64,000 nucleotides of DNA from Oscillospiraceae bacterium (GTDB lineage: Bacteria; Bacillota; Clostridia; Oscillospirales; Ruminococcaceae): the NCBI GenBank assembly GCA_015067315.1, contig SVMR01000009.1, positions 16,815 to 80,814 on the forward strand. Direction: 5' to 3'. A program made the position numbers and the translations under genes. Shown piece by piece: positions 4,015-48,630 of the stretch. Numbering within the stretch: position 1 is the stretch's first letter; every line of letters begins with the position of its first letter. The notes under the pieces were generated by a model, which worked only from the letters and a program-made list of their open reading frames with translations, searched no databases and was not told where the DNA came from.

Positions 4015-4515
4015 TTATAAATCTTTAATCGCTTTTGAAAGGCGCGAACCGTGGCTGTAACCGTGGCAAATCGCCGCCGCCAATGCGTCCGCGGTATCGT
4101 CCGGTTTCGGAACAGCTTCAAGGCGGAGGGTATCGCGCACCATTATCTGAACCTGGTGTTTTTCCGCCCTTCCGTAACCGACGAGGGACTGTTTTATCTG
4201 GAGCGGGGTATATTCAAAAATCGGGATTCCCGCCTGGATTGCCGCAAGAAGGATAACTCCCCTTGCTTCCGCAACGTCGATTGCGGTTTTCTGGTTGCTG
4301 TTGAAATAAAGCCGCTCGATGCTCATGCATTCGGGCTTTGTTTCCGCAATCACTTCTTTTACGGTGTCGTAAATTATCCGGAGCCTTTCTTCAAAAGGCG
4401 TTCCCGCCGGGGTATCAACCGCGCCGAATTTTACCGGATAGAACTTATTTTTAACGTAATCAACAACGCCGACGCCGACTATCGCATAGCCCGGGTCGAT
4501 TCCGATTATCCGCAA
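4015..4515 (-). CDS. ruvC: crossover junction endodeoxyribonuclease RuvC
   Basis: 166 aa. N-terminus MRIIGIDPGYAIVGVGVVD typical of RuvC. First gene of the ruv cluster. Confidence 0.93.
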   Translation of the reverse strand: MRIIGIDPGYAIVGVGVVDYVKNKFYPVKFGAVDTPAGTPFEERLRIIYDTVKEVIAETKPECMSIERLYFNSNQKTAIDVAEARGVILLAAIQAGIPIFEYTPLQIKQSLVGYGRAEKHQVQIMVRDTLRLEAVPKPDDTADALAAAICHGYSHGSRLSKAIKDL

Positions 4516-4688
4516 GCGGTTTCACCTTCTTTACATACTTATCCATTTTGACATTTTATTATATCATACATCTATATATAAGGCAATTATTTTTTATTAA
4601 TTTCCAACAAAAAACGATATGGACAAAAATTCCCTTTTGCGGTAAAATAAACCCGGATTTTATCGTAACAAAGGAGATTTTTTGTAAA

Positions 4689-5225
4689 ATGACCGACGAA
4701 ATGCTCGTTTTCCTCGCAAAAGAGGAAGGTTTTACCAATGCCGCGGTTATCGACACCGCCGAAATCGTTTTTGACGAATCTTTCCGCCCCTATTGCGCGG
4801 AAAATCTTTGCGGAAAATTTGCCGTTAACTATTCCTGCCCGCCGGATTGCGGAACTCCGGAGGAGATGAAAAGCCGCGTTCTTTCCCATAAACACGCCAT
4901 CGTTTTCCAAAGCATCTGGCCAATTTCCGATTACAAGGACGGCGAGGCGATTAAAAAAGCAAAGGGACAGCACAACGCCGCCGGCCTTCGCCTTATGAAG
5001 CGCCTTCGGAAGGAAGGTCACCCCGGTTTTATGATCGGTTCAAGCGGATGCAGCCTCTGCAATCCCTGCGCCATAACCGAAGGAAAACCCTGCAATTTTC
5101 CCGATTTGAAATTTTCCTGCATTTCCGCTTTCTGCATCCACGCAAGAAAGCTTGCGGAAAGCGCCGGAATGGAATATGACGGAAACGGAACCCTTGCACT
5201 TTTCGGACTTTACGTCTGCGATTAA
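4689..5225 (+). CDS. DUF2284-type Cys-rich metal-binding protein
   Basis: The ORF opens at 4548, but the first ATG with coding-like sequence is 4689 (MTDEMLVFLAKEEGF). Cys motif YCAENLCGKFAVNYSCPPDCG is characteristic of DUF2284. Confidence 0.6.
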   Translation: MTDEMLVFLAKEEGFTNAAVIDTAEIVFDESFRPYCAENLCGKFAVNYSCPPDCGTPEEMKSRVLSHKHAIVFQSIWPISDYKDGEAIKKAKGQHNAAGLRLMKRLRKEGHPGFMIGSSGCSLCNPCAITEGKPCNFPDLKFSCISAFCIHARKLAESAGMEYDGNGTLALFGLYVCD

Positions 5226-5268
5226 AAACAAAAAACGGCGGAAGAAATCTTCCGCCGTTTTTTTGTAT

Positions 5269-5673
5269 TCAGATTTTTACCGTGTAATATTTTGCGGTTA
5301 TTTTATCAATATCGAAAACAACGTCGCAGCATTGTTTTATTTTTCCGTTTCCGACGAAAAGTCTGAAACGGTCGTCGCCTTCCCATTCATAGGAAATTGC
5401 CGCATCCTTTTTTGCGAACAGAACAAGCCTGCAGTTTTCTTCGTTACGGTCGGTTTCCGCCTGGATTTTGATGCAGGTAAGACCTTTTGCGGTTTCGGAA
5501 GAACCTATCGAAACCTTCACCCAATTATCGCCGAAAGGAGAATCGAATTCCTCTTCGGCAAAACCGCTTTTCATTTCGCCGGAAATTTTATCAACCGCGG
5601 TTTTTACAGCAATCGCCGCCGCTGTTCCGAGGAAAATTCCCGCCGCAAGACCGAATATTGCTTTCTTTTTCAT
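5269..5673 (-). CDS. hypothetical membrane-anchored protein
   Basis: 134 aa. N-terminal hydrophobic helix MKKKAIFGLAAGIFLGTAAAIAV. No recognisable family. Flanked by a terminator. Confidence 0.5.
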   Translation of the reverse strand: MKKKAIFGLAAGIFLGTAAAIAVKTAVDKISGEMKSGFAEEEFDSPFGDNWVKVSIGSSETAKGLTCIKIQAETDRNEENCRLVLFAKKDAAISYEWEGDDRFRLFVGNGKIKQCCDVVFDIDKITAKYYTVKI

Positions 5674-5693
5674 AATTATCCTCCGTCCGTTTT

Positions 5694-6515
5694 TTATTTT
5701 TCCTTCGCGCAGTCCATATATCTTGCAACGGCGAAACCGCCGGCAAAACAGAGCATTGAAATTATCAGCACCCAGATTCCTTCAAAAGAAGAAGGCAGGA
5801 TTTTAAGCGAAGAAGCAATTACAAATCCGAGAATCACTTTTGACATAACGGGATAATGCTTTGTATAAAGCATTTCGACGACCCTTGCAAGGAGAAGCGC
5901 CGTCGCGCAGATTCCTATTCCGAAAGGAAGAAGAACCTTGAAATCAAGGGAGCCGATGCCGGCGGTCAAAGGTTCAAAAAGTCCGATTATAATAAGAATC
6001 GTTGACGAACTCAGTCCCGGAACAATAAGGCTCAGTCCCCAGAGAACGCCGCAGAGGATATAACTTCCGAAGGAAGGGGCAACCGTTATCGAAAGGCTGT
6101 TTTCAAGAACGTGAAAAAAGAGATATGCAAGGGAAAGAGTTATTACAAAAGGAGTCCAGCTGCTTTTCGGTTCGCTTGTTTCGGAAGATTTGAAAAGTTC
6201 CGGAAGCGTTCCGCAGATAAGTCCGAAGAAAAGCATAAGTGCAACTGTCGGCGAAAGTCCGAAAAGATATTCAACGCCTTTTGCAAGGAAAACAAAACCA
6301 AGCACCCAGCCGATTATGAACGGAACAAACATTTTGTAATGGGTTTTAAAGGTTTTTGCCGGATTCGTAAGAAGAGCCATCATCGGTTCATAAATTCCGA
6401 AAGCGACGCAGAGAACTCCCCCGCTTACTCCCGGAAGAATTGCGCCGACGCCGACTATCGCGCCCTGTATTGCGTACATTATATTTTTAAAAAGCGCGCT
6501 TTGGTTCGTTTTCAT
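5694..6515 (-). CDS. DUF368 family membrane protein
   Basis: 273 aa, polytopic. N-terminal motif GAILPGVSGGVLCVAFGIYE and second repeat IVPGLSSSTILIIIGLFE are typical of DUF368. Confidence 0.8.
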   Translation of the reverse strand: MKTNQSALFKNIMYAIQGAIVGVGAILPGVSGGVLCVAFGIYEPMMALLTNPAKTFKTHYKMFVPFIIGWVLGFVFLAKGVEYLFGLSPTVALMLFFGLICGTLPELFKSSETSEPKSSWTPFVITLSLAYLFFHVLENSLSITVAPSFGSYILCGVLWGLSLIVPGLSSSTILIIIGLFEPLTAGIGSLDFKVLLPFGIGICATALLLARVVEMLYTKHYPVMSKVILGFVIASSLKILPSSFEGIWVLIISMLCFAGGFAVARYMDCAKEK

Positions 6516-8976: not shown

Positions 8977-9087
8977 GCGCCCCTTGTTAAAGGGGAGAGG
9001 GCCACGAAGTGGCGAGGGGATTCTTTTACAAAAAATCCTCCGCCTTCGCCGCAAACGGCGAATCCACCTTTCTTTTGTAAGAGAGGC
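8977..9087 (+). repeat. hairpin-repeat family, short form (R1)
   Basis: Hairpins are cccctt/aagggg, gccac/gtggc, ggggatt/aatcctcc and ttcgccg/cggcgaa, plus a weak fifth. The first 47 nt are identical to 10980-11026. Confidence 0.85.
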
Positions 9088-9179: not shown

Positions 9180-9475
9180 GTTGTTAATATATTATAACGC
9201 GTTGACCGGGAGAGTAGGTTTTATTTTTCCGAAAAGAGAGGAAAAGCCATCGGGCTGAAAGCTTTTCCGCGGATTAAAATTTTTCCGAAGTTCACCCGCG
9301 AGCGGTTTTGCTGAAAAGATTTTTCCCATTAGGCAAAAACGGGCTGCTCCGTTAAAAGCAATTTAAGTGCCCGGCGGTTTTTTATCGTCGGGAATGCGGG
9401 TGGTACCGCGGAGAATTTTTTTCGTTTATGAGTCTTCGTCCCAAATTTGCGGCTTTTGGGCGGAGCTTTTTTTAT
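9180..9475 (+). promoter_or_regulatory. T-box leader (Phe specifier)
   Basis: Conserved T-box sequence aatgcGGGTGGTACCGCGg at 9393-9411. Stem I elements (gggagagta, agagag). Candidate specifier TTC followed by A at 9291-9294. Terminator-like hairpin plus T run at 9437-9473, directly upstream of pheS. Confidence 0.8.
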
Positions 9476-10979: not shown

Positions 10980-11109
10980 GCGCCCCTTGTTAAAGGGGAG
11001 AGGGCCACGAAGTGGCGAGGGGATTCATTACATATCCCGAAATTTTAAAAAGAATCCCTCCGTCATCGTCGCTGCGCTCCGATGACACCTCCCTTTGACA
11101 AGGGAGGCA
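10980..11109 (+). repeat. hairpin-repeat family, short form (R2)
   Basis: Five hairpins: 10983-10998, 11004-11016, 11019-11026 with 11052-11059, 11062-11086, 11088-11107. Confidence 0.88.
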
Positions 11110-13553: not shown

Positions 13554-13563
13554 CTCTAAAAAC

Positions 13564-13588
13564 GGCGGGAGCAAGCCCCCGCCCTACA
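13564..13588 (+). repeat. solitary GC hairpin repeat GGCGGGAGCAAGCCCCCGCCCTACA
   Basis: Near-identical copy at 29508-29532 (1 mismatch). Related stems at 34299-34322, 35987-36007 and 39687-39707. Confidence 0.8.
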
Positions 13589-13608
13589 TTATTTCAGGAG
13601 GTAACTTT

Positions 13609-14119: not shown

Positions 14120-14259
14120 TGCTCCTCGGAGGAGGAGCTGTCACCGAAGGTGACTGAGGAGGGATATCCCCGATAAATTGTGATGAGCGCTCCGCGTTAC
14201 CTTATAATCCCTCATCCGTCATTTGCTTTGCAAATGCCACCTTCCCCTCTGGGAAGGCT
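14120..14259 (+). repeat. hairpin-repeat family, short form (R4)
   Basis: Hairpins: gctcctc/gaggagc, gtcacc/ggtgac, gaggagggat/atccctcatc, catttgc/gcaaatg, ccttccc/gggaagg. Confidence 0.85.
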
Positions 14260-23773: not shown

Positions 23774-25204
23774 ATGACAAACGCAGAAAAATTCTTTGAA
23801 AAAATAAAGGATAAAAAGGTCGCCTTCATCGGAATCGGCGTTTCCCATACGGACGTTATCCGCCAGTTTGCGGAAAAAGGAATCGCAACCGAAGCAAGGG
23901 ACAAAGCCGACCGGGAAAAACTCGGCGAAACGGCTGAACTTCTCGAAAAATCCGGCGCGGTTTTAAAACTCGGCGAAGGATATCTTGACGATATCGATGC
24001 GGATATTGTTTTCAGAACTCCCGGAATGAACTGGTGGAACCCGACCCTTTGCGAACTTCGAAGAGAGGGCAAAGCGGTTACAAGCGAGATGGAAGTTTTC
24101 TTCGATCTCTGCCCCTGCAAAAAATACGCCGTTACCGGTTCCGACGGAAAAACCACCACAACGACCCTTATTTCCGAATTTCTCGCGGCGGAAGGAAAAA
24201 CCGTCCATAAAGGCGGAAACATCGGAAGAGCCCTCCTTCCGATAATCGAGGAAATCAATGACGATGACTGCGCCGTTGTGGAACTTTCCTCCTTCCAGCT
24301 TATCTCCATGAGAACTTCACCGGATGTTGCGGTTGTTACAAACGTTGCGCCGAACCATCTTGACGTTCATAAGGATATGGAGGAATATATTGAAGCGAAG
24401 CGCAACGTCCTCCGCCACCAGAACGCTTTTTCCGTTGCGGTTCTGAACGCGGATAACGTAATAACCAAAAGCATGGCGGAACTTGTTCGGGGCGAACTGC
24501 GCTGGTTCAGCCACCTGAACCCGGTTCAGAACGGCGCTTTCCTTCGGGAAGACGGAATGCTCTGCTATTCCGACCACGGAAAAATCACCGAACTTTTCCA
24601 CAGAAGCGAAATCAAGATTCCCGGACTTCACAACGTAGAAAACTATCTCACCGCAATCGCCGCGACATGGGGCGAGGTTTCCCTTGAAACAATGTATTCC
24701 GTAGCCAAAAACTTCGGCGGCGTTGAACACAGAATCGAACTCTGCCGGGAATTCGAGGGAGTCAAATGGTACAACGATTCCATCGCAACAAGCCCCACCA
24801 GAACCATCGCAGGTCTTTCCTGCTTCGACCAGAAGGTAATTCTTCTTGCGGGCGGTTATGATAAAAACATTCCCTATGCTCCTCTTGCCCCAAGCCTTAT
24901 CGAAAAGGTAAAACTCCTTATCCTTTGCGGAGCAACCGCGCCGAAAATTGCCGAAGCTCTCCGTAACCACCCGGATTATGACGGAAACCCCGAAATTATT
25001 TTCGTCGAGGATATGGAGGAAGCGGTTTCCACCGCCTATGCTTACGCAGAAGAGGGCGACATCGTAACCCTTTCCCCCGCTTCCGCAAGTTTTGACCGCT
25101 ATAAAAACTTCGAGATCCGCGGAAAACATTTTAAGGAACTTGTTTCAAAAATCGGTCAGATCGACGGACTTTCCGCCGATGAACTCTGGCCGGAATATAC
25201 CTGA
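23774..25204 (+). CDS. murD: UDP-N-acetylmuramoyl-L-alanine--D-glutamate ligase
   Basis: 476 aa. P-loop GSDGKTTTTTLI. Mur ligase middle and C-terminal domains. Confidence 0.93.
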   Translation: MTNAEKFFEKIKDKKVAFIGIGVSHTDVIRQFAEKGIATEARDKADREKLGETAELLEKSGAVLKLGEGYLDDIDADIVFRTPGMNWWNPTLCELRREGKAVTSEMEVFFDLCPCKKYAVTGSDGKTTTTTLISEFLAAEGKTVHKGGNIGRALLPIIEEINDDDCAVVELSSFQLISMRTSPDVAVVTNVAPNHLDVHKDMEEYIEAKRNVLRHQNAFSVAVLNADNVITKSMAELVRGELRWFSHLNPVQNGAFLREDGMLCYSDHGKITELFHRSEIKIPGLHNVENYLTAIAATWGEVSLETMYSVAKNFGGVEHRIELCREFEGVKWYNDSIATSPTRTIAGLSCFDQKVILLAGGYDKNIPYAPLAPSLIEKVKLLILCGATAPKIAEALRNHPDYDGNPEIIFVEDMEEAVSTAYAYAEEGDIVTLSPASASFDRYKNFEIRGKHFKELVSKIGQIDGLSADELWPEYT

Positions 25205-25207
25205 ATC

Positions 25208-25336
25208 GCCTCCCTTGCCTAAAGGGAGGGGGACCGTTGCCGTATGGCACGGTGGAGGGATTCTTTAAGCGGAATCCCCCCGTCTTTATTAAATGCAGGC
25301 GTTTAATAAATCCGGTTCCCTTGCCTAAAAGGAACC
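25208..25336 (+). repeat. hairpin-repeat family, short form (R5)
   Basis: Hairpins: cctccctt/aagggagg, accgttgcc/ggcacggt, gagggattc/gaatccc, tttattaaa/tttaataaa, ggttccctt/aaggaacc. Confidence 0.88.
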
Positions 25337-25353
25337 TGTAAAAGGAGAAAATT

Positions 25354-26376
25354 ATGGATACCAGAGATTTGCTTTTAAAATTTTCTTCCGTTGACGGAAA
25401 CTCCGGCGACGAAAAACTTGCCGCAAAAGCCGCCGTTGAACTTCTTTCCGTTTACGGAAAAACTTATATTGACAACCTCGGAAGCGTTATCTGCGAAGTT
25501 GCCCCGAAGAAAAACGGACGCCACGTTATGCTCGACGCACATCTTGACCAGATCGCTCTTCTTGTAATCAACGTTGAAGAAAACGGATTTTTAAGAACCT
25601 ATCCCTGCGGCGGAATCGACCGCAGAGGAATCCACGGAACAAAAGTCCGCGTTCTCGGAAAAGACGGTGAATATTCCGGAATCGTCTGCAGCGTTCCGCC
25701 CCATATCAAGGACGTTAATGACAAAAACCCCGAAAGGGACGAAATTTTCATCGATATCGGTTTCAGCAAGGAAGAAACCGCAAAAAGAGTCCGCATGGGC
25801 GACCGCGTTATGCTTTGCGGAAAATGGAGCGATATCGGAAACGGCTATGTCACCGGCCCGGCTCTTGATGACAGAAGCGGCTGCGTGACCATTCTTGAAG
25901 CTCTTGAAATTCTTAAAGATAAAGAACTCCCCTGCGGTCTTACCGCGGTTTTCTCCACCAGGGAAGAAACCGGCGGTCAGGGTGCCGGCGCCGCAGCTTT
26001 TGCTGTTGCTCCTACCGAAGCCATTGAAATCGACGTCGGTTTCGGAAAAACCCCGGACACCACCGAAATCAATTCAAAAGCAATGAAAAAAGGTCCGGTA
26101 ATCGCTTTCCATCCGACCCTTGATTTGGATATTTCCAAAAAACTCATCGCTCTTTCCGAAAAGAACGAAATTCCTTTCCAGGTCGAAGCCTACGGCGGTT
26201 CCTCAACCGGAACAAACGCGGACGAAATCGCTTCCGCCGGAGCGGGAGTCCGCAGCGGACTTATTTCCATTCCCCAGCAGTATATGCACAGCATTATTGA
26301 AAAAGTTTCCGTCGATGACGTAAAAAATGTCGGAAAACTTCTTGCCGCATTCGTAATGGAAGGAGGAGAAAATTAA
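25354..26376 (+). CDS. M42 family metallopeptidase
   Basis: 340 aa. M42 (FrvX/YsdC-like) pattern MLDAHLDQIA, GPALDDRSG, TREETGGQGA. Confidence 0.85.
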   Translation: MDTRDLLLKFSSVDGNSGDEKLAAKAAVELLSVYGKTYIDNLGSVICEVAPKKNGRHVMLDAHLDQIALLVINVEENGFLRTYPCGGIDRRGIHGTKVRVLGKDGEYSGIVCSVPPHIKDVNDKNPERDEIFIDIGFSKEETAKRVRMGDRVMLCGKWSDIGNGYVTGPALDDRSGCVTILEALEILKDKELPCGLTAVFSTREETGGQGAGAAAFAVAPTEAIEIDVGFGKTPDTTEINSKAMKKGPVIAFHPTLDLDISKKLIALSEKNEIPFQVEAYGGSSTGTNADEIASAGAGVRSGLISIPQQYMHSIIEKVSVDDVKNVGKLLAAFVMEGGEN

Positions 26377-29471: not shown

Positions 29472-29507
29472 TTGACAGCAAATGCAATTTGATGTAAAAT
29501 GAATAGC

Positions 29508-29532
29508 GGCGGGAGCAAGCTCCCGCCCTACA
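29508..29532 (+). repeat. solitary GC hairpin repeat GGCGGGAGCAAGCTCCCGCCCTACA
   Basis: Copy of 13564-13588. Lies between ynbB-like gene and tRNA-Leu. Confidence 0.8.
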
Positions 29533-29545
29533 TTTTTAAAAATCC

Positions 29546-35797: not shown

Positions 35798-35802
35798 AAA
35801 AT

Positions 35803-36206
35803 GCCCCCTTGCCTAAAGGGGGCTGTCACGCTTTTAAGAACAGGTGCGTGACTGGGGGATTCTTGTATAGATTACCGGTTGTTTTTAAATTGGACGGGGT
35901 TAACACCTCATCCGTCACGCTTTATTCTTGCGGCGCGACACCCTCCCCTCAAGGGGAAGGCTAACCCTCCGGGAATCCTTTTTTGCGGGCGACCACAAGG
36001 GTCGCCCCTACGGAGTTCTAATTAACTTTCTGCTTTACATTTAAAAGAATCCCTCCACCATCTTCGATGGTCCCCCCAACTCTTGCGGTACCCAAAATAT
36101 TCTGCGGCATACGCCTTGAATATTTTGACCGCGGCGCGCCAAACCCTGCTCGCTTCATCGTCCACAGGACGCGCTTCACAGGCTTTACTCTTTAGGCAAG
36201 GGAGCC
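35803..36206 (+). repeat. hairpin-repeat family, long foldback form (R8)
   Basis: Left end H1-H2-tgggggattc (35803-35862). Internal modules follow, including cctcatccgtc..., cctcccct/ggggaagg and gggcgacc/gggtcgccc. The right end is the left end inverted: gaatccctcc-accatc/gatggt (36047-36071), then a 130-nt arm (36077-36206) ending in an inverted H1. Confidence 0.85.
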
Positions 36207-36214
36207 TTGATATG

Positions 36215-39544: not shown

Positions 39545-39876
39545 GCCCCCTTGCCTAAAGGGGGCTGGATTTTTTAACCGCTTGCGGTTAAAAAAGACTG
39601 GGGGATTCTGTATGGATTACCGGCTGTTTTAAATTGGACGGGGTTGACACCTCATCCGTCACGCCCTCCGGGTTCCTTTTTTGCGGGCGACCACATAGGG
39701 TCGCCCCTACTGCATTTAAATGAATCCCCCCGCCACTTCGTGGCCCTCCCAACTCTTGCGGTACCCAAAATATTCTGCGGCATACGCCTTGAATATTTTG
39801 ACCGCGGCGCCAAACCCTGCTCGCTTCATCGTCCACAGGACGCGCTTCACAGGCTTTGCTCTTTAGGCAAGGGGGG
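39545..39876 (+). repeat. hairpin-repeat family, long foldback form (R9)
   Basis: Same module order as 35803-36206. Terminal 15-nt inverted repeat cccccttgcctaaag. The right arm 39750-39876 is nearly identical to 36077-36206. Confidence 0.88.
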
Positions 39877-39904
39877 CTTTCCTGCAACATTTTGCATTCT
39901 GCAT

Positions 39905-47382: not shown

Positions 47383-48630
47383 TCAGTCGTCAATGCGTTT
47401 TCTGCCGATGATGAAAAGACCCACAGCAGCGCCAACAAGAACGATGAGAAGAACGATGATGATCCATGCCCAGATCGGAACGCCGCCTTTTTCTTCGGGT
47501 TCTTCAACTTCTCCGCCTATTACGATAATTTCTTCTTCGGAAGAAGATTCGGAAGAATCGGTAATTTCTTCCTCAGAAGAGGATTCGGAAGAAATGGGGA
47601 GTTCTTCCTCGGAAGAAGAATCGGAAGAAACGGGGAGTTCTTCTTCGGAAGAGGATTCGGAAGAAACGGGAGGTTCCGGTTCGGAAGAAGAGGAAGAGCT
47701 GGAAACCGGTTCTTCAACCTTTTCGTTTACTGTTACGTCAAAAGTCGCGGTTTTTGCTTTTTCGCCTTCGCCGTAAGTTACGGTTACGGTCTGGGTTCCC
47801 GCTTCGTCGAATTTTGTAACGTCGGTTTTAAAACCTTCGGTAATGTCTTCTGCGCTTCCGTCGCCTTTATGAAGGCGGACGGTCATTCCGGTTGTATCAA
47901 GATTTTCGCCCACGGTATAGGTGAGTTTTTCCGGTTTTTTGAAAATTTCGATTCTGAGAATGTCATTGGGATTTGCGTATTCGAATTTTACGCGGAAGTG
48001 ATCCTCGAAAAGCTTGAGATCGCCGTTCTGGTTATAGGGCGCTTTGAGATATACAACAACGTTCTGCGCTTCGTCGGAAGTGAAAACCGCGGGTTCGACC
48101 CAGCATAATTCGGTTACGTCAATATCCTTCGGCTCGTACATATCGGTTTCTTTGTTGAACTTATAGACTGTTGCAATTACTTTAAGTCCGGTGAGGTCAA
48201 CGGTATCGCCGAGATAATAAACAAGTTTATCGGGCCATTTGTAAATACTCATGGAATGAACGTAATCAAAGGGAGATTCTTCGCCCACAACCACGGTGTA
48301 ATCGATTTTTTCAACAACGGTTCCGTCTTCTTTTTTATAAGTTACAGAAAAATTATAGGTTCCGGCTTTTGTGGGGGTTCCGGAAAGGGTCATTTTGAAA
48401 ACATAATCGCCGAAGGTGTTTTTATATGCCCAGGTTCCGGAAAGTTTCATTCCTTCCGGAACGTTTCCGCTTTTGGAAAAGGTTTTTGCGCCGAGAACGG
48501 TTTCGATTACGCTGTCAAATTCAAGACCAACATATGCGCCTTTTATTTCTGTTGCAGCCATTGCCTGTACCGGAACAAGCAATACTATCATAAGAACAGC
48601 AAGAAAAGCGCTGAAAATTCTTTTTTTCAT
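47383..48630 (-). CDS. cell-surface protein with Ig-like (Big_3-type) domains, Ser/Glu-rich stalk and C-terminal membrane anchor
   Basis: 415 aa. Signal peptide ending VQAMAA. Repeated pattern P(D/E)KLxYxxG(D/E)xxDxxG(L/M). Stalk of four SSESSSEEE units. C-terminal TM helix plus GRKRIDD. No LPXTG motif. Confidence 0.75.
   Translation of the reverse strand: MKKRIFSAFLAVLMIVLLVPVQAMAATEIKGAYVGLEFDSVIETVLGAKTFSKSGNVPEGMKLSGTWAYKNTFGDYVFKMTLSGTPTKAGTYNFSVTYKKEDGTVVEKIDYTVVVGEESPFDYVHSMSIYKWPDKLVYYLGDTVDLTGLKVIATVYKFNKETDMYEPKDIDVTELCWVEPAVFTSDEAQNVVVYLKAPYNQNGDLKLFEDHFRVKFEYANPNDILRIEIFKKPEKLTYTVGENLDTTGMTVRLHKGDGSAEDITEGFKTDVTKFDEAGTQTVTVTYGEGEKAKTATFDVTVNEKVEEPVSSSSSSSEPEPPVSSESSSEEELPVSSDSSSEEELPISSESSSEEEITDSSESSSEEEIIVIGGEVEEPEEKGGVPIWAWIIIVLLIVLVGAAVGLFIIGRKRIDD
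47529..47672 (-). repeat. in-frame 36-bp tandem repeat, about 4 units, inside the surface-protein gene
   Basis: The DNA period of 36 nt encodes PPVSSESSSEEE / LPVSSDSSSEEE / LPISSESSSEEE / ITDSSESSSEEE. Boundaries are approximate. Confidence 0.8.

What the first reader, a model, noticed from the sequence alone, without database searches (positions are those of the whole stretch)
25208..25336. Homologous hairpins keep pairing while changing sequence
The copy between murD and the first M42 peptidase gene has the same five-hairpin order as 10980-11109 and 14120-14259, but the stems differ and remain complementary. H2 is gccac/gtggc (R1, R2), gtcacc/ggtgac (R4), accgttgcc/ggcacggt (R5), gtcacgc/gcgtgac (R8) and ttttttaaccg/cggttaaaaaa (R9). 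H4 is gtcatcg/cgatgac, catttgc/gcaaatg, tttattaaa/tttaataaa or ttcgccg/cggcgaa. The linkers stay conserved (GGGGATTC, GAATCCCTC, TCCGTC, CACC). This pattern fits selection for, or generation of, structure rather than primary sequence. This copy has no T run after any hairpin and sits between co-oriented genes 150 nt apart, so it is probably part of an mRNA.
Basis: seen in the sequence. Interest (0 to 1): 0.65.

Follow-up and report, generated by a model that had tools for sequence, protein, structure and literature searches.

The report
Hairpin repeat element inserted after murD
The 129-base spacer between murD and the peptidase gene is one inserted copy of an abundant REP/REPIN-like hairpin repeat of gut Oscillospiraceae; its stems really do change by matched base-pair swaps, which is a known hallmark of such repeats and not a sign of a dedicated regulatory RNA.

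Summary

The element is two inverted arms of about 55 nt around an 8-nt spacer. Each arm reads end hairpin CCCTTG..AAAGGG, then a variable "slot" hairpin, then GGGATTC. The genome holds about 100-120 such arms. Counts in congeners run from 0 to 153, and the arms also occur in gut metagenomes and 31 viral contigs.

Covariation is real. One slot hairpin (TGTCNNCGAAGNNGACTG) has 146 of 150 listed copies fully Watson-Crick, in four states linked by single pair swaps. All four non-paired variants are singletons. Thirteen of 17 two-change steps between near-identical hairpins are compensated, against 0.44 expected.

It is not a conserved murD-peptidase RNA. The site is empty in at least 7 sister species and in two metagenomes, and other relatives carry different element forms there.

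The best reading is a REPIN/BIME-like mobile DNA repeat with CGTC-tagged hairpins. It shares the genome with about 150 GTAG REPs and one RAYT transposase gene. It is probably co-transcribed, and any RNA effect is secondary.

Arms are also constrained at orthologous sites: 27 of 311 columns vary, against 50 of 115 in the spacer. This is a new variant of a known kind, of moderate interest.

The parts
25208..25336 (+). Whole element (R5): two inverted arms around an 8-nt spacer, inserted 3 nt after the murD stop codon and 5-8 nt before the M42 ribosome-binding site.
   Evidence: Sequence; folds; empty or differently filled site in relatives and metagenomes.
25208..25263 (+). Left arm. It comprises H1 (25209-25229), slot hairpin H2 accgttgcc/ggcacggt (25233-25253) and core GAGGGATTC (25255-25263).
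   Evidence: An identical arm occurs at C32:25352-25406, with near-identical arms in C35 and C36. The same arm sits at the R1 site of five congeners. Word depth is about 5000-6000 in gut metagenomes against about 18 for the flanks.
25264..25271 (.). Central spacer tttaagcg (the H3 loop), unusually short.
   Evidence: Spacer lengths across the paired elements of the genome are 8-348 nt, with a mode of 28. The spacer is the fast-evolving part at orthologous loci.
25272..25336 (-). Right arm, in inverted orientation. It comprises core GAATCCCC (25272-25279), CGTC tag (25281-25284), slot hairpin H4 tttattaaa/tttaataaa (25285-25310) and H5 ggttcc/ggaacc (25314-25336).
   Evidence: H4 is a private derivative of the common ggattttttaaccgc class with two compensated pair changes and one mismatch. 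It has one copy in the genome and none within 3 mismatches in 24 congeners. Metagenome depth is like the flanks.
25202..25204 (+). murD stop codon TGA. The last sense codon differs from that of relatives (T instead of K).
25344..25356 (+). GGAG ribosome-binding site and ATG of the first M42 peptidase gene.
8977..9087 (+). Family copy R2 (H2 gccac/gtggc, H4 ttcgccg/cggcgaa).
10980..11109 (+). Family copy R1. Orthologous copies exist in three congeners; other congeners carry other element types or a solo hairpin at this site.
14120..14259 (+). Family copy R4 (CTCCTC..GAGGAG end hairpin, GGGATAT core). Orthologous copies exist in five congeners; the element is absent in three others, two of which carry a different short hairpin there.
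35802..36210 (+). Long-form family copy R8, with extra modules including a GTAG-type REP between the arms.
39545..39880 (+). Long-form family copy R9.

Best explanation
The element is one copy of a REPIN/BIME-like mosaic DNA repeat family of an uncultured ruminant-gut Oscillospiraceae genus.

The unit is two inverted arms of about 55 nt around a variable spacer. Each arm has an end hairpin (CCCTTG..AAAGGG), a 'slot' hairpin whose foot carries a CGTC/TGTC-type tag, and the core GGGATTC. The two cores can pair across the spacer.

Shown: the family spreads by insertion, and the murD-M42, R1 and R4 sites are each empty, filled, or filled differently among sister species.

Inferred: hairpin formation, most likely in single-stranded DNA read by a hairpin-specific enzyme, is needed for a variant to amplify. 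The resident HUH/Y1 RAYT transposase is the obvious candidate. Under this reading only paired variants become multi-copy subfamilies, and unpaired variants stay singletons and decay. That filter produces the appearance of homologous hairpins that keep pairing while changing sequence. Whole-hairpin exchange between copies adds further differences.

Shown: arms are also held constant at orthologous loci. Inferred: the cause is purifying selection or gene conversion.

In this copy the element is passively co-transcribed with murD and the peptidase gene. Like E. coli REPs, it may tune upstream versus downstream expression, but it is not a conserved regulator of this operon.
For: Family and architecture:
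- About 120 arms lie in the 1.9-Mb genome, in roughly 15-20 discrete slot classes, and left and right arms are reverse complements of shared types.
- The arm pattern occurs 101 times and 0 times in the reversed control. Counts in 24 congeners run from 0 to 153, and only 2 of 16 other genera have it.

Insertion polymorphism:
- The murD-M42 spacer is about 15-20 nt, with no element, in L002, L006, L009, L011, L015, L029 and L031. L003, L005, L013, L034, L004, L007 and L008 carry other element forms, and L012 carries a five-hairpin form with other stems.
- Metagenome contigs in X8 and X10 join 25199 to 25354 with only 19 other letters. X7 carries the GTAG-REP form.
- The R1 and R4 sites behave the same way.

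Covariation:
- Over 163 distinct slot hairpins there are 1039 Watson-Crick, 41 G-T and 20 mismatched pairs. Thirteen of 17 two-change steps are compensated, against 0.44 expected (P about 2e-15).
- For TGTCNNCGAAGNNGACTG, 146 of 150 listed copies are fully paired, against 42 expected. They fall into four states: AG/CT 53, AC/GT 48, TG/CA 24, GC/GC 21. The states are joined by single pair swaps and amplified to different degrees in different genomes. The four unpaired variants are all singletons.

DNA-level hints:
- 48 of about 55 triloops are cGNAg (GAA in 31). From memory, this is the classic very stable DNA mini-hairpin.
- There is no G-T over A-C excess (9 against 4, p 0.27).

REP/RAYT context:
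- One RAYT gene scores 75 bits on NF047646 against a cut-off of 80, and 26 bits on PF01797 against 23. It is flanked by inverted GTAGGGAACGGTC..GACCGTTCC REPs.
- The genome has about 150 GTAG REPs in 5 classes. 34% of GTAG hairpins lie within 300 nt of an arm, against 3.4% of the genome.
- RAYT is present in 10 of 13 genomes with at least 10 arms and in 4 of 28 with fewer (p 2e-4; within the genus 9/12 against 2/13, p 0.005).

In-situ constraint:
- Arms vary at 27 of 311 columns and the central spacer at 50 of 115 (p 6e-15).

Known hallmarks:
- Conserved inverted REPs, a less conserved spacer and common compensatory changes are described for REPINs (PMC3116915).
- A CGTC head, A/T at the first stem positions and a CCA tail are described for CGTC REPs (PMC3733652). 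They match ccGTCATTTCC..GGAAATgCCAcc in the commonest arm class.
Against: - No transposition event or enzyme-DNA contact is shown. The RAYT's flanking REPs are GTAG type, not arms, and R5 itself has no GTAG.
- Three arm-rich genomes (G004, G014, G023) show no RAYT, and G007, G022 and G036 have RAYT but 0-1 arms. The association is not corrected for phylogeny.
- No target-site rule or duplication could be read from filled versus empty sites.
- Strong in-situ conservation of arms is not predicted by a purely selfish repeat. It needs host-level function or gene conversion.
- R5's H4 is a private variant with two compensated pairs. In this copy, pairing was therefore kept without amplification.
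- Di Nocera et al. state that CGTC REPs lack a dedicated transposase.
Confidence: 0.72

Rival explanations
1. The hairpins are maintained mainly because they work as RNA. On this reading they are generic 3'-UTR or intercistronic modules that block 3'-5' decay, attenuate readthrough or stall terminating ribosomes, as shown for E. coli REPs. Selection at each locus keeps the stems. This is compatible with a mobile origin.
For: - Arms are constrained at orthologous loci.
- R5's private H4 kept pairing through two compensated swaps.
- Arms are densest between convergent genes (0.68 per kb), against 0.39 for tandem and 0.26 for divergent gaps.
- 24 of 76 arms that face a gene's 3' end start within 15 nt of the stop codon.
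- An RNA contig crosses an element-bearing murD-M42 spacer in a relative.
- E. coli REP325 acts as both terminator and stabiliser in a tandem operon (bioRxiv 10.64898/2026.03.23.713779).
Against: - There is no G-U excess among internal mismatches (9 G-T, 4 A-C, 9 other of 752 pairs).
- Unpaired linkers (GGGATTC, CGTC) are as conserved as the stems, which RNA stability alone does not require.
- Each transcript carries both orientations of the arm.
- cGNAg triloops dominate.
- Sister species do without the element at all three sites examined.
Confidence: 0.25
2. Pairing is generated by mutation rather than selection. Intra-hairpin template switching during replication (quasi-palindrome correction) copies a change from one arm of a stem onto the other. 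Stems then stay perfect while drifting.
For: - Compensated swaps include transversion flips (C-G to G-C, A-T to T-A) in one step.
- G-T or mismatch intermediates are rare.
- Some hairpins look like apical extensions of shorter ones, for example gccac-gaa-gtggc against gccac-at-gcc-gtaa-ggc-gtggc.
- The mechanism is documented for RNA hairpins (PMC8794818).
Against: - It predicts near-neutral sequence turnover in stems. At orthologous loci the arms change about five times less often than the spacer, and unpaired linkers are conserved too.
- Uncompensated decay is seen in situ, for example three single changes in H1 of L084.
- Only four states exist among 150 copies of one hairpin.
Confidence: 0.1
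3. The murD-M42 copy is a dedicated structured cis-regulatory or small RNA of this operon.
For: It lies between co-oriented genes without a terminator, and it folds well.
Against: - The site is empty in at least 7 sister species and in two metagenome populations, and it holds unrelated element forms in others.
- Its left arm is a multi-copy repeat.
- There is no Rfam match even at E 10.
Confidence: 0.04
4. The stems are unrelated palindromes dropped into a common scaffold (pure cassette exchange), so the apparent covariation is trivial.
For: - Whole-hairpin replacement does occur at fixed flanks (L096 against L083, L004 against L034).
- The same hairpin occurs in either slot in either orientation.
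Against: Many variants differ by exactly one pair in an otherwise identical hairpin and loop. Thirteen of 17 such steps are compensated, and one hairpin shows a chain of four states.
Confidence: 0.05

Closest known systems
REPINs (REP doublets forming hairpins) with RAYT transposases (Bertels and Rainey 2011, PMC3116915; Nunvar et al. 2010, PMC2817692)
   Same: - Two highly conserved inverted arms separated by a less conserved spacer.
- Predicted hairpin in ssDNA or mRNA.
- Compensatory changes are common.
- Extragenic, with about a hundred or more copies.
- A single RAYT gene flanked by inverted REPs in the same genome.
- Patchy, lineage-specific abundance.
   Different: - Each arm here is about 55 nt with two local hairpins plus a conserved unpaired core, not one 20-25-nt REP.
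- The arms carry CGTC/TGTC-type tags rather than GTAG tags.
- The RAYT's own flanking REPs are a different (GTAG) class.
- The host is a Bacillota (Oscillospiraceae), not a proteobacterium.
CGTC-tagged REP superfamily, including Neisseria dRS3/NIME and Rickettsia RPE-4/6 (Di Nocera et al. 2013, PMC3733652)
   Same: - The hairpin is preceded by CGTC (or TGTC).
- The first stem positions are A/T.
- The tail is CCA.
- Head-to-head dimers.
- Sub-families have alternative complementary stem residues.
- No obviously dedicated transposase.
   Different: - Stems here are 5-11 bp with mostly 3-4-nt loops, against 8-9 bp with 4-5-nt loops.
- The hairpin is embedded in a larger arm with an extra end hairpin and a GGGATTC core.
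- The text of that survey never mentions Firmicutes or Clostridia.
BIMEs of E. coli (mosaics of REP/PU units in alternating orientation with conserved linker motifs)
   Same: - Mosaic build from a small repertoire of palindromic units and conserved linkers.
- Long forms with extra modules.
- Location after genes and between convergent genes.
- Possible roles as mRNA stabiliser or attenuator.
   Different: The sequences, unit repertoire and host are unrelated. Binding of gyrase, IHF or Pol I is untested here.
Integron attC sites
   Same: Structure is conserved while sequence varies, and the sites are recognised as folded single-stranded DNA.
   Different: There is no integrase, no R/L core sites (GTTRRRY) and no cassette array. 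The elements lie among housekeeping genes. The resemblance is recalled from memory only.

Membership tests
REP/REPIN-RAYT system | Short palindromic units at high copy number, overwhelmingly extragenic. | tested here: met
   The arm pattern has 101 matches and 0 in the reversed control. Arms lie in intergenic gaps or at the ends of crude ORF calls.
REP/REPIN-RAYT system | Inverted doublet with a less conserved spacer that can fold into a hairpin. | tested here: met
   23 paired elements with spacers of 8-348 nt. Arms vary at 27 of 311 columns against 50 of 115 for the spacer. Folds.
REP/REPIN-RAYT system | Compensatory changes keep the stems. | tested here: met
REP/REPIN-RAYT system | A RAYT (Y1 HUH) gene flanked by the cognate repeat. 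| tested here: inconclusive
   A RAYT is present (75 bits against a cut-off of 80 on NF047646; over the cut-off on PF01797). It is flanked by GTAG REPs, not by arms. RAYT presence correlates with arm abundance (p 2e-4, uncorrected for phylogeny). GTAG REPs cluster with arms.
REP/REPIN-RAYT system | Mobility: presence/absence polymorphism at orthologous sites. | tested here: met
   Three sites examined: murD-M42, R1 and R4.
REP/REPIN-RAYT system | Cleavage or binding by the transposase. | not testable with these tools
   Needs biochemistry.
CGTC-tagged REPs (Di Nocera 2013) | Unpaired CGTC (or TGTC/CCTC) head next to the stem. | tested here: met
   R5 has CGTC at 25281-25284, directly before H4. 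R1 and R4 have ccgtc before H4. L-type arms have tgtc. H2 of R5 has no such head.
CGTC-tagged REPs (Di Nocera 2013) | Stem of 8-9 bp starting with A/T pairs, loop of 4-5 nt, CCA tail. | tested here: inconclusive
   The A/T start and CCA tail fit the commonest class (gtc-atttcc-tgc-ggaaat-g-cca). Stem lengths are 5-11 bp and triloops dominate.
Described RNA family (Rfam 15) | Match to a covariance model. | tested here: not met
   The only gathering-score hits in the window are a T-box and two tRNAs. Nothing better than E 3 at 25100-25450.
Intrinsic terminator | GC-rich hairpin followed by a T run. | tested here: not met
   No T run follows any of the five hairpins.

The most novel reading that the evidence does not exclude
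The arms may be a host-retained structural module rather than decaying selfish repeats. They are kept nearly invariant at orthologous loci across species, and their slot hairpin evolves only along a network of paired states.

If a RAYT-like enzyme reads these CGTC-tagged hairpins, this would be the first candidate mobilising or maintaining enzyme for the CGTC REP superfamily. The slot stem could then act as a specificity code matching hairpin classes to RAYT paralogues, since arm-rich congeners carry up to four.
Probability: 0.15. Interest if true: 0.65.

Novelty: new variant of a known kind. Interest (0 to 1): 0.4.

Why it matters
- It shows that the murD-peptidase spacer should not be annotated as a riboswitch-like or small-RNA locus.
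- It documents a REP/REPIN-type system in gut Oscillospiraceae (Bacillota), a group barely covered by the REP literature. RAYT group 1 is noted in Clostridia, but the CGTC/GTAG survey never mentions Firmicutes or Clostridia.
- The family gives an unusually clean natural data set on how hairpins move through sequence space. One hairpin has four paired states, each amplified in different species, with unpaired variants confined to singletons.
- These repeats break metagenome assemblies. Depth jumps from about 20 to about 6000 inside the left arm. They also create strain-level differences next to stop codons and ribosome-binding sites of housekeeping genes.

Tried and rejected
- **Rfam.** Searches at gathering score and at E 10 found nothing relevant.
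- **Mirror-image pairing test.** Pairing column i with column n-1-i across slots of equal length was uninformative, because the hairpins are not centred in the slot. It was dropped in favour of step counting between near-identical hairpins and the fixed-frame pattern count.
- **G-T versus A-C asymmetry** as an RNA/DNA discriminator: only 22 internal mismatches, no signal.
- **Orientation of asymmetric elements relative to flanking genes:** 6 co-oriented against 2 opposed in tandem contexts, too few to use.
- **Target site or duplication.** Comparing filled and empty sites showed no consistent duplication or tetranucleotide.
- **RNA evidence.** Metatranscriptome contigs cover the multi-copy left arm and one relative's spacer, but not this organism's locus. 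Transcription of this copy is therefore inferred, not shown.
- **Gene calls** were crude longest-ORF calls. 29 arms fell 'inside' ORFs, mostly at ORF ends or in short spurious ORFs. The context figures are therefore approximate.
- **Integron attC, terminator and riboswitch readings** were considered and rejected (see membership tests).

Full report
**1. What is at 25208-25336**

The sequence lies between the murD stop codon (TGA, 25202-25204; ORF 23774-25204) and the GGAG/ATG of the first M42 peptidase gene (ATG at 25354).

Both RNA and DNA energy models give the same five local hairpins. MFE is -59.1 kcal/mol as RNA (z -4.39) and -31.8 kcal/mol as DNA (z -5.11). None of 200 shuffles folds as well.

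No T run follows any hairpin. The linkers in this copy are only approximate: GAGGGATTC, GAATCCCCC, CCGTC, and no CACC.

**2. Anatomy: two inverted arms, not five independent hairpins**

A genome-wide collection shows that the right half of the element is the reverse complement of a left-half type.

The unit, or 'arm', is about 45-65 nt. It reads: end hairpin (G/C)CCCCTTG..AAAGGG(G/A)G, then a variable slot hairpin, then (G)GRGGGATTC. H2 and H4 are therefore the same slot, and so are H1 and H5. H3 is simply the two cores pairing across the spacer.

The same slot hairpin can be found in either position. R5's H2, accgttgccgtatggcacggt, occurs reverse-complemented in the H4 position of a copy on C36.

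The genome (1.92 Mb, 37 contigs, 44% G+C) has about 120 arms in roughly 15-20 discrete slot classes, most of them multi-copy. A strict arm pattern matches 101 times and never in the reversed control. Spacers between paired arms are 8-348 nt, with a mode of 28. R5 has one of the shortest.

R5's left arm is identical to one on C32, whose element also has an 8-nt spacer but a different right arm.

**3. It is an insertion, not a conserved feature of the operon**

MurD homologues identify the organism as an uncultured Oscillospiraceae from ruminant gut and give 80 orthologous loci. Downstream of murD:
- Seven sister species (L002, L006, L009, L011, L015, L029, L031) have only a 15-20-nt spacer holding the ribosome-binding site.
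- L003, L005, L013 and L034 carry a GTAG-type REP plus a one-arm module.
- L004, L007 and L008 carry yet other forms.
- L012 carries a five-hairpin element with different H2 and H4 stems and a 29-nt spacer.

Metagenome contigs agree. X1 holds the window's form. X8 and X10 hold a close relative whose contig joins 25199 to 25354 through 19 letters (AAATCTAAGGAGACAAAAA). X7 has the GTAG-REP form.

Word depth rises from about 18 to about 5000-6000 inside the left arm, but stays near the flank level in the right arm.

The R1 and R4 sites of the window behave the same way among congeners: the same element, different elements, a solo end hairpin, or nothing.

Across 24 congeners the arm count runs from 0 (ten genomes) to 137 and 153. 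Only 2 of 16 other genera in the order have any.

31 IMG/VR contigs also carry the arm.

**4. Is the covariation real?**

Three tests were run.

(a) Pairing overall. Over 163 distinct slot hairpins from this genome, relatives and metagenomes, 1039 pairs are Watson-Crick, 41 are G-T and 20 are mismatched.

(b) Steps between near-identical hairpins. Only hairpins of equal stem and loop length differing at 3 positions or fewer were linked in a minimum spanning tree, so homology is not in doubt.
- The tree has 13 compensated pair swaps, 17 single stem changes (10 to G-T, 7 to mismatch) and 56 loop changes.
- Of 17 steps with exactly two stem changes, 13 are a compensated pair, against 0.44 expected if sites changed independently (P about 2e-15).
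- A smaller first pass gave the same picture.

(c) A fixed frame. The pattern TGTCNNCGAAGNNGACTG has 259 copies in the 25 genomes searched (24 congeners plus this genome).
- Of the 150 listed, 146 have both variable pairs Watson-Crick, against 42 expected from the marginals.
- They fall into four states: AG/CT 53, AC/GT 48, TG/CA 24 and GC/GC 21.
- The states form a chain of single pair swaps: GC/GC, AC/GT, AG/CT, TG/CA.
- The four unpaired variants (AT/CT, AC/TT, CC/GT, GC/GT) are each single copies, one mutation away from a common state.
- The states are amplified differently by genome. G010 has 18 GC/GC, G003 has 14 AC/GT, and G014 has only AG/CT.

The covariation is therefore genuine. In terms of events, however, it consists of a few compensated swaps, each followed by amplification. 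Paired variants proliferate and unpaired variants do not.

Whole-hairpin replacement between conserved flanks also occurs, for example L096 against L083 at the R1 site and L004 against L034 at the murD site.

**5. What happens at a fixed locus**

Where the same element sits at an orthologous site in several species (flanking DNA 87-89% identical), the arms are almost invariant, linkers included, while the central spacer drifts. Variable columns number 27 of 311 in arms against 50 of 115 in spacers (Fisher p 6e-15).

In-situ changes include uncompensated decay: three single changes in H1 of L084, and changes in the GTAG REP of L003 and L005. They also include three compensated swaps:
- L084, R4-H2: gtcAcc/ggTgac to gtcGcc/ggCgac.
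- L093, H5: C-G to T-A.
- L096, inner H2: C-G to G-C.

R5's own H4 is a private derivative of the common ggattttttaaccgc..gcggttaaaaaagac class. Pairs 4 and 9 are swapped with compensation (T-A to A-T, C-G to A-T), and pair 10 is broken. The variant has a single copy in this genome and no match within 3 mismatches in 24 congeners.

L012, which shares the rare GGTTCC end hairpin and so is probably the same insertion, has T-A at pair 9 and one other mismatch.

Pairing is thus also retained at loci, not only during amplification. Either purifying selection or gene conversion from paralogous copies can explain that. Pure template switching cannot, because it would not slow stem turnover or protect unpaired linkers.

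**6. RNA or DNA?**

*For DNA.* The unpaired cores and tags are as conserved as the stems. Each transcript would contain both orientations of the arm. 48 of about 55 triloops are cGNAg (GAA in 31), which from memory is the classic hyperstable DNA mini-hairpin. Internal mismatches show no G-T excess (9 G-T, 4 A-C, 9 other of 752 pairs; p 0.27).

*For some RNA-level consequence.*
- Arms are enriched between convergent genes (0.68 per kb) relative to tandem (0.39) and divergent (0.26) gaps (crude ORF calls).
- 24 of 76 arms that face a gene's 3' end begin within 15 nt of the stop codon, as R5, R1 and R4 do.
- A bovine gut metatranscriptome contig runs from the murD end through a 95-nt insert into the M42 gene of a relative.

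In E. coli, an intercistronic REP acts as a partial terminator and upstream mRNA stabiliser (bioRxiv 10.64898/2026.03.23.713779). From memory, REPs close to stop codons have been reported to provoke trans-translation (Liang, Rudd and Deutscher 2015). That paper did not come up in my library search, so the point is uncited.

Transcription of this particular copy is inferred, not shown.

**7. The REP/RAYT context**

The genome has one RAYT gene (C4:97153-97554, 152 aa, with an HUH motif MPNHIHAII and a C-terminal YIYDNP). It scores 75 bits on NF047646, just under the cut-off of 80, and 26 bits on PF01797, above the cut-off of 23.

The gene is flanked by inverted GTAGGGAACGGTCTTGACCGTTCC hairpins, and a third copy lies inside the ORF.

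About 150 GTAG-headed hairpins fall into five classes with different but always complementary stems. 34% of GTAG hairpins lie within 300 nt of an arm, although only 3.4% of the genome does. One RNA contig shows an arm core followed directly by the RAYT-type REP (loose end in X27).

RAYT is found in 10 of 13 genomes with at least 10 arms and in 4 of 28 with fewer (p 2e-4; within the genus p 0.005). This is not corrected for shared ancestry, and there are exceptions in both directions.

The link between RAYT and the arms is therefore suggestive only.

**8. Comparison with what is known**

REPINs are described as two highly conserved inverted REPs with a less conserved spacer. They are predicted to form hairpins in ssDNA or mRNA, with common compensatory changes, and are associated with a single-copy RAYT (PMC3116915).

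CGTC-tagged REPs have a CGTC/TGTC head, A/T first stem pairs, a CCA tail, head-to-head dimers, sub-families with alternative complementary stem residues, and no dedicated transposase. Firmicutes and Clostridia are not mentioned in the text (PMC3733652).

The commonest arm class here, ccGTC-ATTTCC-tgc-GGAAAT-g-CCA-cc, fits that description. RAYT group 1 is noted in Clostridia (PMC5581495).

What differs is the compound arm (end hairpin, slot hairpin and GGGATTC core), the very wide repertoire of slot stems, the coexistence with GTAG REPs in one mosaic, and the host group.

I therefore file it as a new variant of a known kind.

**9. Verdict**

The best mechanism is that hairpin formation, probably in single-stranded DNA read by a hairpin-specific enzyme, is required for amplification, with additional constraint or gene conversion at resident loci. 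Confidence is about 0.7.

Interest is 0.4. The data set on paired-state networks and in-situ conservation is cleaner than usual, and the CGTC-REP/RAYT question becomes testable, but nothing here is categorically new.

Noticed in passing
G000 C4:97153-97554 (L001 1444-1902); REPs at L001 1404-1430, about 1700-1725 and 1912-1938: The single RAYT gene is flanked by inverted GTAGGGAACGGTC..GACCGTTCC REPs. A third copy of the same REP lies inside its reading frame, encoding ..ERSRPFPT.. without breaking it.
   Followed up: partly
L088, L089, L095 (R1 site in G011, G022, G015), against window 10980-11109: 'Empty' alleles of the R1 site keep a single end-type hairpin, for example gcctccctttccaaaagggaaccc. 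It looks like the left half of H1 joined to the right half of H5. It could be a solo-LTR-like deletion footprint or a pre-existing target hairpin.
   Followed up: partly
genome-wide (G000): Of 76 arms whose outer end faces a gene's 3' end, 24 start between -15 and +11 nt of the stop codon. Arms facing a 5' end cluster 15-28 nt upstream of the start codon. The elements therefore abut stop codons and ribosome-binding sites.
   Followed up: partly
genome-wide (G000), e.g. window 13558-13593 and 29502-29537: About 150 classical GTAG-headed REPs fall into five stem classes: GGGCGACC, GGCGGGGGC, GGAACGGTC, GGAACGTCG and GGGCGGATA. They are often nested in the long mosaic forms and are ten-fold enriched near arms.
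   Followed up: partly
slot hairpins, all sources: The triloops are overwhelmingly cGNAg (GAA 31, GCA 10, GTA 5, GGA 2 of about 55). A frequent metagenome class, gccGAgc-gcaa-gcGAggc, has a symmetric tandem G-A internal loop.
   Followed up: no
L012 about 4416-4600 (murD end in a 93%-identical relative): In L012 the murD alignment runs to residue 476 without an obvious in-frame stop before the element. The reading frame may continue into the repeat, giving a repeat-encoded C-terminal extension.
   Followed up: no
L085 (G008), R4 site: The orthologous R4 copy in G008 has cleanly lost the slot hairpin H2 and part of H1 (ggctcctcagaggag|ggatat). This is an internal deletion between the GAGGAG repeats.
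   Followed up: no
window 47494-47709: Five tandem copies of a 36-nt unit (72-nt register), ttcttc..ggaaga-rich, presumably coding repeats on the minus strand. Unrelated to the hairpin family.
   Followed up: no
window 9193-9446: A T-box leader (110 bits) lies upstream of the pheS-like gene, bracketed by family copies R2 and R1.
   Followed up: no
IMG/VR contigs L220-L250: 31 viral or proviral contigs carry an exact R-type arm. Whether these are true phage genomes or host fragments was not checked.
   Followed up: no
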